A stretch of 64,000 nt of DNA, taken from NCBI GenBank assembly GCA_965218585.1, contig CBDCLE010000017.1, forward strand, positions 71,470 through 135,469, in the 5' to 3' direction. Shown piece by piece: positions 61,560 to 64,000 of the stretch. The notes under the pieces were generated by a model. It saw only the letters and a list, made by a program, of their open reading frames with translations, searched no databases and was not told where the DNA came from. The position numbers were made by a program, and so were the translations under genes. This DNA is from Terriglobia bacterium (GTDB lineage: Bacteria > Acidobacteriota > Terriglobia > 20CM-2-55-15). How positions within the stretch are numbered: the stretch's first letter is position 1; the number at the start of each line of letters is the position of its first letter.

Positions 61560-61998
61560 CTCGCCGGGAGATTCGCATGGTCGGCTTGACGCTCGACAAG
61601 GGGAGAACCGCATTTAAGAAGGCACGCGAGCTAAACGGAACGTCAACTCACCGGGAGGGACTTAATGATCAATTATTGGCCTCTCAAATTTCTTGAATCC
61701 AAAGTCGTCCGTCGCCGAACTGTGGCCGGACTCCAGCAAATACGAGGCTTAATTCGAGATCAGATGCCTGAGCGTGCTCTTCAGCGTAAACTGGTTCTTG
61801 GAACCTGGAACATACGGAACTTCGATGACAATCGTTTCGGCCACGGCCCCCGCCTGACGGAATCTCTGTTTTACATCGCCGAGGTTATTTCGGCCTTCGA
61901 TGTCATCGCCATCCAGGAAACCGCAAGGGATCTGACCCCGCTCAGGCAGGTGATGACCATCCTGGGCCGGCACTATGAACTCATCGTAACTGACGTCG

Positions 61999-63383
61999 AG
62001 TTATTGTCAAAAGTGGTGTTTTGCCGATTGACTCAAGCGGCGGCCTGATCGACGTGGGTCACTTCGATTCCATCGTTGAATTTCACTCCAGTAATCACCT
62101 TGGGCAGATCATCGAATCCTCGTAATCGTCGCCAGTTCTTTTGAGCGCACTGTCCCAGTTTGAACATCATGTGCAGCATGCCAACCCGCGTCAGGCAACC
62201 CCTGGATCGCTTGGTTCGGTGGCGAATGGTAGCAAAGGTCGACTCAATGGGATTGGTCGTTCGGATGCTCTGCCAGTGCTTGGCCGGGAAGTTGAAGAAG
62301 GCCAGCAGTTCTTCTTTGTCTTTCTGGAGGCAGCGAGTGGCTTTCGGATACTTCGGCTCATAGGTTTCAATGAACAGATCGAATGCCTTCTCGGCGTCTG
62401 CCTGTGTCTGAGCCCGCCAGATCGCGTGCAAAGCCTGTTTCGCCTTCGCCTGGGCCGACTTCGGGAGCCCGTTCAGTACGTTCATGGTCTTGTGCATCCA
62501 GCAACGTTGGTGACGTGTCTCGGGATAGATTTCCTCCAGTGCGGCCCAGAATCCCATCGCACCGTCTCCGATGGCCAACTTCGGGATATTCATCCCACGC
62601 GACTTCAGCTTTAACAAGACCTCGCGCCAACTCTGTGTCGATTCCCGGACACCGTCTTCGATTGCCAGAAAACGTTTCTCTCCGCGTTGATTCGCGCCGA
62701 TCACCACCAGTGCGCACAACTTGGTTTCTTCGGCCCGCAGTCCGCTGTAGATACCGTCGGCCCAGACATAGACCCAGCGATCGGCATCCAATCGCTCCTC
62801 GCATCCCCGGCGGTACTGCTCGGCCCAGACCTGTTTCAACCGCGATACCGTGCTCGCCGACAGGCCCTGCGCCTGGGGTCCGACAAGAACTTTTAGAGCG
62901 TCACCCATCTCGCCGCTGGAGACGCCTTTCAAATACAACCACGGCACCGCTGCTTCCAGCGATTTCGTTTTCCGAATGTAGGGAGGTACCAGGGCCGACC
63001 GGAACGTTACCGGGTCGCCAGTCTTCGCTCGGACTTTCGGGATCTGGACCGTTACCGGCCCCAAACCGGTCTGCAGTTCACGTTCAGGCAGATAACCGTT
63101 GCGCACCACCCCGGCGTTGCCCGTCTCGGTTCTCCGATCGCCGTGGTGGGATAGCAGTTCCGCCAATTCGGTTTCCACCGCGCGTTGGATCAGTTGCTGA
63201 GCTCCAACTCGTAGTAGCTCTGTTATCGGATCCTCAATCGTCTCTCGACCCTCCGGTCCAGTCACGTTACTCTTGCTCATAGTGGCGTATCTCCCTTGGT
63301 TGCTTTGAAGTCTGGTAAACAACAAATCAACCAGATACGCCGCTCTTCCTCAATCCCTTAAACACCAGATTCGGTTATAACTC
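61999..63383 (-). mobile_element. IS256-family insertion sequence (distinct from the other two copies), 1385 bp, with 9-bp target-site duplication ACTGACGTC
   Basis: IRs GAGTTATTGTCAAAAGTGGTGTTT and GAGTTATAACCGAATCTGGTGTTT (reverse complement of the right end). ACTGACGTC occurs at 61990-61998 and again at 63384-63392. Confidence 0.85.
62033..63279 (-). CDS. IS256-family transposase (mutator-type DDE)
   Basis: Conserved IS256 transposase blocks (WQSIRTTNPIESTF, CWMHK). The start is likely at the MSKSNVT Met (63279), although the ORF extends to 63325. Confidence 0.9.
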
Positions 63384-64000
63384 ACTGACGTCACAGAGGG
63401 GCCCAGTGGGAACCTGGAGCGCCTCGCCTTCATTTACGACACGAACAAAGTATGGTTTCGCGACATCGCAGGAGAGATCGTCCTGCCTTTCAAGAAGCAG
63501 ATCAGCGATGTCACAAAGCGCAGATAGTTTGCTAGAACGCCGTTTACGTGTGCTTTCCAATCCGGTTGGTTCAAATTCGTCCTGTCTACGGTCCACATCT
63601 ACTACGGCAAACAGTCCAAGACGAGCAATGAATATAAAAGACGCGTCCGGGGAAATCGAGGGCATAGCGAAATTCCTCAAGGACCGAGCCGATGACGAAA
63701 AGGACAACTACATTCTCGTCGGTGACTTCAACATTGATAAGCCGGGCGACCCCACCTTTAACGCTTTAGCGGATCAAGGGTTTTCGCTGTTTCAGAACAA
63801 GATCGGTAGCAACCAGAAGAAGACCAAACATTATGACCAGATCTCATGGCTGCCCTCAGAACCGGGATTACTACAAACCGAGGGCGATCGAAATCAAGGA
63901 GTGCTGGACGTCTTCTCGGCCGTATTCAAGGAAACAGACTTTCCGAAGTACAAGAGAATTGTCGTAAAGACTCTCAAGAACAAACTCGATAGAGCCAAGT

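What the first reader, a model, noticed from the sequence alone, without database searches (positions are those of the whole stretch)
61665..64000. Low-GC EEP (DNase I-like) gene interrupted by a second IS256-family element with 9-bp TSD, plus an in-frame TAG and an A-run frameshift
Removing the 1385-bp IS and one copy of ACTGACGTC restores ...HYELIVTDVTEGPSGNLERLAFIYDTNKVWFRD... in one frame. An in-frame TAG at 63525 and a frame change at the A4 run (~63636) precede the conserved GDFN block, so the gene carries multiple lesions. The intact TSD shows this IS family is or was recently active in this genome, in addition to the element at 8377.
Basis: seen in the sequence. Interest (0 to 1): 0.5.

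Follow-up and report, generated by a model that had tools for sequence, protein, structure and literature searches.

The report
IS256-type insertion in dead nuclease-like gene
A small jumping gene (an IS256-family insertion sequence) has landed inside a DNase I-like enzyme gene that also carries premature stop codons, which is ordinary gene decay, and the reported frameshift is most likely an assembly error.

Summary
The core observation holds. A 1386-bp IS256-family element (61998-63383, transposase on the minus strand) sits inside a 408-codon EEP (DNase I-like fold) gene. It is flanked by a perfect, codon-aligned 9-bp duplication, ACTGACGTC. Removing it restores ...LIVTDVTEGPSGN..., which matches invariant residues of more than 4000 homologs. 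The TAG at 63525 is real. It replaces an invariant Gln and is also present in a second assembly. That assembly shows a second TAG just past the window end, at an invariant Trp. The frameshift claim fails. The frame runs through the A4 run (EYKRRVR matches homologs). The extra base is in the G4 run 63649-63652, and the second assembly has GGG there and stays in frame. All four indels between the two assemblies are +1 homopolymer bases in the window. One breaks a conserved symporter gene and another detaches a protease gene's ATG start, so the frameshift is very probably an assembly artefact. The element at 8377 is a different IS256-family IS (35% aa identity) with a truncated second copy at 56871-58147. 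The host is an Acidobacteriota ('Terriglobia') MAG lineage whose relatives carry many copies of this IS group. Low interest.

The parts
61665..61997 (+). 5' fragment of the EEP (DNase I-like fold) pseudogene, codons 1-111, ending in the left copy of the target-site duplication
   Evidence: ORF from ATG 61665. It aligns residue for residue with P0001 (82% identity) and 11 other homologs, including the invariant WNIRNFDD and IQE motifs.
61989..61997 (.). Left copy of the 9-bp target-site duplication ACTGACGTC (codons T109-D110-V111)
   Evidence: There are only two occurrences in the window, and both abut the IS ends.
61998..63383 (-). IS-B, a 1386-bp IS256-family insertion sequence of the ISOan6-like subgroup. 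Terminal inverted repeats at 61998-62021 and 63360-63383 match at 18 of 24 positions.
   Evidence: Copies 99.9% identical occur in L007, L008 and L009. Full-length relatives at 70-96% nt identity occur in other genomes. The closest annotated plasmid copies are 'IS256 family transposase' and 'ISOan6 family', at 71-77% aa identity.
62033..63280 (-). Intact IS-B transposase gene (415 aa from ATG; stop TGA)
   Evidence: PF00872 E=2.4e-62. NF033543 IS256 equivalog E=2.2e-91, 306 bits against a cut-off of 150. An identical protein is encoded on two other ENA contigs.
63384..63392 (.). Right copy of the 9-bp target-site duplication ACTGACGTC
63393..64000 (+). 3' part of the EEP pseudogene, from codon 112 to about codon 313. 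It runs off the window; the real stop (TGA) lies about 285 bp further on in L007.
   Evidence: The restored gene is 1227 nt (408 codons plus stop), the same length as P0001.
63525..63527 (+). In-frame TAG replacing invariant Gln156 (RQFARTP); consistent with CAG>TAG
   Evidence: Also present in the independent assembly L007 at 11861.
63649..63652 (+). G4 run holding the one extra base that shifts the frame in the window. It reads GGG and is in frame in L007. Probably an assembly artefact.
   Evidence: window G4 against L007 G3. (L007 reads ...EYKRRVREIEGIAKFL... in one frame). (R194, R195, V196, E198 and I199 are invariant in homologs).
63721..63732 (+). Conserved GDFN catalytic block of the EEP fold, in the shifted frame of the window
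   Evidence: G221, D222, F223 and N224 are invariant.
8377..9741 (+). IS-A copy 1, a different IS256-family element (1365 bp). It has an 8-bp duplication GGATGAGG (8369-8376 and 9742-9749) and inverted repeats containing TGTAAA.
   Evidence: Its transposase is 35% identical to that of IS-B. NF033543 at 272 bits.
56871..58147 (-). IS-A copy 2, 99% identical to copy 1 and in inverted orientation. It lacks the first 88 bp, including the left inverted repeat.

Best explanation
A stand-alone, cytoplasmic EEP-superfamily gene of 408 codons was inactivated in an Acidobacteriota ('Terriglobia') lineage. Its fold is closest to DNase I/DNase1L3, with a three-helix insertion. A 1386-bp IS256-family element (IS-B) inserted at codons 109-111 and duplicated 9 bp of target, as expected for this DDE (Mutator-type) transposase family, which moves by copy-out/paste-in. 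The gene also carries two nonsense codons, both TAG, at invariant Gln156 (inside the window) and at an invariant Trp just past the window end. Each is consistent with a single G:C>A:T transition. All catalytic residues are still present and the gene is 82% identical to its best intact homolog, so the decay is recent. The apparent +1 frameshift is not a biological lesion. It is an over-called G in a homopolymer of the window's assembly. Shown: the IS, its duplication, the restored frame, the TAGs, the family assignments and the difference between assemblies. Inferred: the order of events, the transposition mechanism, and that the G4 is an error rather than a polymorphism.
For: IS and duplication. 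Transposase family. Restored frame and lesions at invariant residues: (T109, D110, Q156 and W356 are invariant in 35 sequences). The second assembly L007 (ENA ERZ25067264, 136-kb contig labelled 4x) shares the IS and the TAG, shows a second TAG at GT*RTFQLSDH, and has the real stop TGA at the same length as P0001. Artefact evidence comes from the window-to-L007 comparison over 12.3 kb. There are four indels, all +1 homopolymer bases in the window, and three substitutions, all inside IS copies, so unique sequence has no substitutions. The A7 at 54544 splits an SSF symporter that is an intact 616 aa in L007. The frame after the run is the L007 frame by codon-position GC (0.57/0.48/0.69 against 0.69/0.57/0.48). 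That frame also has 240 homologs, including full-length proteins of 599-657 aa matched at their C-termini. The T3 at 60502 detaches the ATG start of the astacin-like gene. Recent IS activity: 99.9% identical copies lie in different flanks (L008, L009; L009 has an 8/9 duplication). Of 91 distinct full-length relatives, 41 have perfect 9-bp duplications. TAG is a normal stop here, ending 12 of 39 long ORFs.
Against: No empty site was found. A 30-mer spanning the precise-excision junction has no exact match in GTDB genomes or JGI metagenomes, and no homolog above 82% identity exists in the protein collection. That the insertion is derived therefore rests on comparison with distant homologs only. 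L007 has only about 4x coverage by its name, so it is not a gold standard. The independence of the two assemblies (different samples or the same reads) could not be established. In a gene that is already dead, a real 1-bp insertion would carry no cost, so the G4 could be genuine. No reads were available.
Confidence: 0.88

Rival explanations
1. The extra G at 63649-63652 is a genuine 1-bp insertion, a fourth lesion that is fixed or polymorphic in the window's strain. On this reading the first reader was right in substance and wrong only about the site.
For: The gene is already inactivated by the IS and two TAGs, so a frameshift would be neutral. L007 is a low-coverage contig ('4x' in its name) and could be the erroneous one.
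Against: All four indels between the assemblies are homopolymer +1 bases in the window. Two of them break otherwise conserved or intact genes (SSF symporter, astacin-like protease) that are whole in L007. There are no substitutions in unique sequence between the two assemblies, so real divergence is essentially nil.
Confidence: 0.1
2. The in-frame TAGs are not lesions. They would be either sequencing errors or codons that are read through or recoded, leaving the IS as the only real damage.
For: Both internal stops are TAG while the real stop is TGA. Low-coverage long-read assemblies can carry errors.
Against: The TAG at 63525 is identical in two assemblies. Twelve of 39 long ORFs in the window end in TAG, so TAG is an ordinary stop here. 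The two TAGs replace different invariant residues (Gln and Trp), which no single recoding would satisfy. Errors between the assemblies are homopolymer indels, not substitutions, in unique sequence.
Confidence: 0.03
3. The IS placement is an assembly chimera (a repeat-induced misjoin), or it is an old, fixed arrangement in which the two halves are separate functional genes.
For: ISs are classic misassembly points. The only three substitutions between the assemblies lie inside IS copies, which suggests some mixing of reads between copies.
Against: Both junctions carry a perfect, codon-aligned 9-bp duplication, and the flanks rejoin into one frame matching more than 4000 homologs of about 390 aa. 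The same junctions are present in two assemblies. Nine bp is the typical duplication of this IS group. Neither half alone contains the full catalytic set: N49 and E85 are upstream; D222, N224, D259, D363 and H364 are downstream.
Confidence: 0.02

Closest known systems
IS256 family insertion sequences (prokaryotic Mutator-type DDE transposases), nearest annotated subgroup 'IS256-like element ISOan6' of Octadecabacter arcticus; ISCth4 is the structurally studied member (PMC7780238)
   Same: Single transposase ORF with PF00872 and NF033543 matches above their cut-offs. Length about 1.4 kb, imperfect terminal inverted repeats, and an 8-9 bp target duplication (9 bp here; 8 bp for IS-A and for ISCth4). 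Multiple near-identical copies exist. [quoted passage not shown]
   Different: At most 77% aa identity to any annotated plasmid-borne copy and at most 95.7% nt identity to any copy in the GTDB or JGI stretches fetched by matching its 24-nt end; the only closer copies (99.9% nt) are in unannotated ENA metagenome contigs. It would probably receive its own IS name. The subterminal TGTAAA motif noted for many family members (PMC7780238) is absent from the IS-B ends, which share TGGTGTTT instead; it is present in IS-A.
DNase I / DNase1L3 and the wider endonuclease/exonuclease/phosphatase (EEP, PF03372) superfamily
   Different: The margin over other EEP branches is small (PDE12 22.2, EEPD1 22.0, nSMase2 21.4, Tdp2 21.0). 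The family has no signal peptide. It has a strongly conserved N-terminus (MINYWPLK) followed by a helix, and a roughly 70-residue three-helix insertion before the last strand. There are no PADLOC or specific NCBIfam matches and no conserved gene neighbours. The substrate is unknown.
IS-mediated pseudogenisation in host-associated or IS-rich bacterial genomes
   Same: A gene interrupted by an IS, with added nonsense mutations. A neighbouring phosphoesterase gene is also truncated at an IS. Related MAGs carry dozens of copies of the IS group.
   Different: Nothing distinguishes this case from the general phenomenon.

Membership tests
IS256 family (insertion sequence) | Transposase matches the family profile above the curated threshold | tested here: met
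   NF033543 transpos_IS256 (equivalog) at 306.4 bits against a cut-off of 150. PF00872 Transposase_mut E=2.4e-62, 211.5 bits against 21.
IS256 family (insertion sequence) | Compact element (about 1.3-1.5 kb) with one transposase ORF bounded by imperfect terminal inverted repeats | tested here: met
   1386 bp with a single 415-aa ORF. The ends GAGTTATTGTCAAAAGTGGTGTTT and GAGTTATAACCGAATCTGGTGTTT match at 18 of 24 positions.
IS256 family (insertion sequence) | Short (8-9 bp) direct target-site duplication on insertion | tested here: met
   Perfect 9-bp ACTGACGTC at both junctions. Among 91 distinct full-length relatives, 41 have perfect 9-bp repeats. ISCth4 gives 8 bp (PMC7780238).
IS256 family (insertion sequence) | DDE catalytic triad and copy-out/paste-in transposition through a circular intermediate | not testable with these tools
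   Inferred from family membership (PMC7780238). Individual catalytic residues were not mapped, and no circle junctions can be observed in an assembly.
EEP superfamily (PF03372, DNase I-like fold) | Profile match above the gathering score | tested here: met
   The restored window protein scores 30.1 bits against 24.5, E=5e-7, over residues 46-242. Homologs carry precomputed PF03372 hits.
EEP superfamily (PF03372, DNase I-like fold) | Conserved catalytic residues (Asn, Glu, Asp-x-Asn, Asp, Asp-His) | tested here: met
   N49, E85, D222, N224, D259, D363 and H364 are invariant in 35 homologs. All are present in the window or L007 sequence: WNIRNF, IQE, GDFN, YDQIS and SDH.
EEP superfamily (PF03372, DNase I-like fold) | Four-layer alpha/beta sandwich fold | tested here: met
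DNase I subfamily proper | Specific relationship to DNase I rather than to other EEP branches; DNA endonuclease activity | tested here: inconclusive
Pseudogene | Disruption of a reading frame that is intact and conserved in homologs, at positions incompatible with function | tested here: met
   The IS splits the catalytic residues between two fragments. TAG codons sit at invariant Q156 and at the invariant Trp of WRTFQxSDH, in two assemblies for the first and in L007 for the second.

The most novel reading that the evidence does not exclude
The interrupted gene belongs to a large, uncharacterised, stand-alone EEP subfamily with more than 4000 members across Proteobacteria, Planctomycete-like and Acidobacteriota genomes. 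The subfamily has no signal peptide, a conserved MINYWPLK N-terminus and a three-helix insertion. It could be an intracellular nuclease or phosphodiesterase with a costly or toxic activity (for example a defence or stress nuclease). On that reading, the triple inactivation here, next to a SoFic-like gene and another IS-truncated phosphoesterase, would reflect selection to lose an acquired defence or effector islet rather than neutral decay.
Probability: 0.08. Interest if true: 0.3.

Novelty: new member of a known kind. Interest (0 to 1): 0.08.

Why it matters
It matters little biologically. It is a textbook IS knockout of an accessory gene in an IS-rich environmental MAG. The practical value lies in annotation and quality control. 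First, the locus should be annotated as a pseudogene plus an IS256-family element. Second, the window's assembly carries +1 homopolymer errors that create false frameshifts in at least two otherwise intact genes, so single-base frameshifts in this contig should not be read as biology. Third, the IS group, with its conserved 24-nt end, is abundant in related 'Terriglobia' MAGs and can serve as a marker of recent IS expansion there.

Tried and rejected
(1) Empty-site search. The 30-mer across the precise-excision junction gave no exact match in GTDB genomes or JGI metagenomes. Exact-protein look-ups of the 127-aa N-terminal fragment and of the neighbouring Fic protein found only the same two contigs. 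No strain without the IS could therefore be shown.

(2) Identifying the window's own record through the 100%-identical UvrB cluster P0124. No gene with exactly that product is on record, so the source accession stays unknown.

(3) Defence-system assignment of the EEP family. There were no PADLOC hits and no NCBIfam hit near its cut-off.

(4) Conserved neighbourhood of EEP homologs. The contexts of P0001, P0012 and P0110 share nothing, so the gene is stand-alone.

(5) TAG recoding. Rejected, because TAG ends 12 of 39 long ORFs and the two sites replace different residues.

(6) The A4-run frameshift. Rejected, because the frame through the A-run matches invariant residues.

(7) IS-B as a copy of the element at 8377. 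Rejected: no nucleotide similarity and 35% aa identity.

(8) A Planctomycete host, suggested by the context of P0001. Rejected for the window by UvrB relatives.

(9) 'Low GC' as evidence of foreign origin. Weak: GC3 is only slightly below that of other genes, and the homolog P0001 is also about 6 points below its own contig.

Full report
WHAT IS THERE. An ORF starts at ATG 61665 and reads MINYWPLKFL...HYELIVTDV. It then runs into foreign sequence. The 9-mer ACTGACGTC occurs exactly twice in the 64-kb window, at 61989-61997 and 63384-63392, and never as its reverse complement. Between the two copies lie 1386 bp (61998-63383).

This insert has imperfect terminal inverted repeats, GAGTTATTGTCAAAAGTGGTGTTT and GAGTTATAACCGAATCTGGTGTTT, matching at 18 of 24 positions. 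It carries one intact minus-strand ORF (62033-63280, 415 aa from ATG). That ORF matches Pfam Transposase_mut at E=2.4e-62. It also matches the NCBIfam IS256 equivalog NF033543 at 306 bits against a cut-off of 150. Deleting the insert plus one repeat copy gives a single frame...LIVTDVTEGPSGNLERLAFIYD.... The repeat corresponds exactly to codons T109-D110-V111.

THE INTERRUPTED GENE. The restored protein hits PF03372 (Exo_endo_phos) at 30.1 bits against a gathering score of 24.5. It has 4247 homologs at E<=1e-3, nearly all 380-415 aa; the best, P0001, is 82% identical and 408 aa long. In alignments of 13 and 35 members the junction residues T109, D110, G117 and N118 are invariant. The excision-restored sequence is therefore the ancestral one.

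The family has no signal peptide (direct reading of the conserved N-terminus MINYWPLK). It has no PADLOC match and no NCBIfam match near its cut-off. It has no conserved neighbours in three unrelated contexts.

THE POINT LESIONS. TAG at 63525-63527 replaces Gln156 of RQFARTP, which is invariant in 35 homologs. This is consistent with CAG>TAG.

The original frame reads straight through the A4 run (63636-63639) as EYKRRVR, matching invariant Y192, R194, R195 and V196. The frame is lost one codon later, in the G4 run 63649-63652. Reading CGG GAA ATC GAG restores REIEG, with invariant E198 and I199.

A SECOND ASSEMBLY CHANGES THE PICTURE. An exact-protein look-up of the 127-aa N-terminal fragment retrieved ENA contig ERZ25067264:ctg830538_4x_l (136 kb; locus L007). 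It overlaps the last 12.3 kb of the window at 99.94% identity and extends past the window end. L007 has the same IS at the same site and the same TAG. It has GGG instead of GGGG, so it reads ...EYKRRVREIEGIAKFLKDRADDEKDNYILVGDFN... in one frame.

The two assemblies differ by only seven positions. Four are single-base indels, each an extra base in a homopolymer in the window: A7 at 54544, C4 at 60177, T3 at 60502 and G4 at 63649. Three are substitutions, and all of them lie inside IS copies: 57942 in IS-A copy 2, and 62401 and 63261 in IS-B. Unique sequence therefore shows no substitutions at all.

The A7 at 54544 splits a sodium:solute symporter gene that is an intact 616 aa in L007. Downstream of the run, the L007 frame has the coding GC pattern (0.57/0.48/0.69, against 0.69/0.57/0.48 for the window's read-through frame). 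The L007 frame also has 240 homologs, including full-length proteins of 599-657 aa matched at their C-termini. The T3 at 60502 detaches the ATG start of the astacin-like protease gene, which is continuous in L007.

The window's assembly therefore over-calls homopolymers, and the EEP 'frameshift' is most probably one of these errors. I cannot exclude a real polymorphism without reads; I give that about 10%.

BEYOND THE WINDOW. L007 shows the rest of the gene. A second in-frame TAG replaces the invariant Trp of WRTFQxSDH (GT*RTFQLSDHLPLWVEL). The true stop is a TGA that gives 408 codons, the same length as P0001. The gene is therefore genuinely dead through three lesions: the IS and two nonsense codons.

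All catalytic residues are retained (N49, E85, D222/N224, D259, D363/H364) and identity to P0001 is 82%, so the inactivation is recent. TAG recoding is excluded. Twelve of 39 long ORFs in the window end in TAG, and the two sites replace different residues.

THE IS AND ITS ACTIVITY. The element at 8377 is real: 8377-9741, 1365 bp, with an 8-bp duplication GGATGAGG and inverted repeats containing the TGTAAA motif noted for the family (PMC7780238). It is a different IS, however. Its transposase is only 35% identical to that of IS-B and there is no nucleotide similarity. Its 99%-identical partner lies at 56871-58147 in inverted orientation. That partner lacks the first 88 bp, including one inverted repeat, and abuts a 191-aa N-terminal fragment of a PF04185 phosphoesterase. 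The window thus holds three IS256-family copies of two ISs.

For IS-B, an identical transposase is encoded on two other ENA contigs, L008 and L009. Both are 99.93% identical over all 1386 bp and have different flanks; L009 has an 8/9 duplication and L008 has none. The 24-nt end of IS-B is found exactly in more than 111 GTDB genome stretches and more than 120 JGI contigs. Most of the genome stretches are in 'Terriglobia' MAGs carrying many copies, and others are in Microbulbifer and several other phyla. There are 101 near-full-length relatives at 70-96% nt identity. Of 91 distinct full-length copies with both flanks available, 41 carry perfect 9-bp duplications. The closest annotated plasmid copies are 'IS256 family' or 'ISOan6 family' transposases at 71-77% aa identity. 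'Recently active' is therefore well supported.

HOST. It is 81% identical to an 'Acidobacteria bacterium' protein. By contrast, the best EEP homolog P0001 sits among PSD/PSCyt-domain genes typical of Planctomycetes and is not syntenic. The EEP gene has probably moved horizontally.

Its GC (51.2%) is the lowest 1-kb bin of the window, but only 6 points below the mean. GC3 is nearly normal, and P0001 shows the same offset in its own contig. 'Low-GC' is a weak signal.

WHAT COULD NOT BE SHOWN. No empty site was found. The window's own record was not identified. The independence of the two assemblies is not proven, and no reads were available.

VERDICT. This is an ordinary IS256-family knockout of an accessory EEP gene with additional nonsense mutations. 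The reported frameshift was mislocated and is very probably an assembly artefact. Interest is low.

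Noticed in passing
window 54544 (A7), 60177 (C4), 60502 (T3), 63649 (G4): Relative to an independent contig (L007), the window has one extra base in four homopolymers. The one at 54544 splits a conserved 616-aa SSF symporter gene. The one at 60502 cuts the ATG start off the astacin-like protease. Single-base frameshifts in this contig are suspect.
   Followed up: yes
window 57942, 62401, 63261: The only three substitutions between the window and L007 over 12.3 kb all fall inside IS copies. This suggests read mixing between IS copies during consensus calling, or gene conversion, rather than strain divergence.
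   Followed up: partly
window 8377-9741 and 56871-58147: Two 99%-identical copies of a second IS256-family element (IS-A) lie in inverted orientation 47 kb apart. Copy 1 is complete with an 8-bp duplication GGATGAGG. Copy 2 lacks its first 88 bp and one inverted repeat. Whether recombination between them has inverted the interval was not tested.
   Followed up: partly
window 58127-58708 (-): A 191-193-aa N-terminal fragment of a PF04185 phosphoesterase (phospholipase C/acid phosphatase type) ends exactly at the truncated IS-A copy. This is a second IS-associated gene truncation within 4 kb of the EEP pseudogene. The missing C-terminal part was not located.
   Followed up: partly
window 59088-60140 (+): The Fic-domain protein two genes upstream matches the PADLOC SoFic model at E=5e-47 over its whole length. 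It is a candidate single-gene anti-phage defence protein sitting between two IS-damaged genes.
   Followed up: no
L007 12461-12463 (about 126 bp past the window end): A second in-frame TAG in the EEP gene replaces the invariant Trp of WRTFQxSDH. The true stop, TGA, is at L007 12620.
   Followed up: yes
L010-L200 (GTDB and JGI loci): The 24-nt IS-B end GAGTTATAACCGAATCTGGTGTTT is conserved exactly across Acidobacteriota, Gammaproteobacteria (Microbulbifer, Halioglobus, Thiogranum), Verrucomicrobiota and MAGs named Candidatus Spongiihabitans / Poriferihabitaceae. Some 'Terriglobia' MAGs carry more than 20 copies, which indicates a large recent IS expansion.
   Followed up: partly
L008 2898-4283: A 99.9% identical IS-B copy without a target duplication sits in an IS-rich patch (DDE_Tnp_1, Y1_Tnp, PemK toxin). 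This suggests nested insertions or recombination between IS copies.
   Followed up: no
L001-L006 (contexts of P0001): The closest intact EEP homolog (82% aa, 75% nt) lies in a Planctomycete-type context (PSD/PSCyt, HXXSHH genes) that is not syntenic with the window. This implies cross-phylum transfer of the EEP gene.
   Followed up: partly
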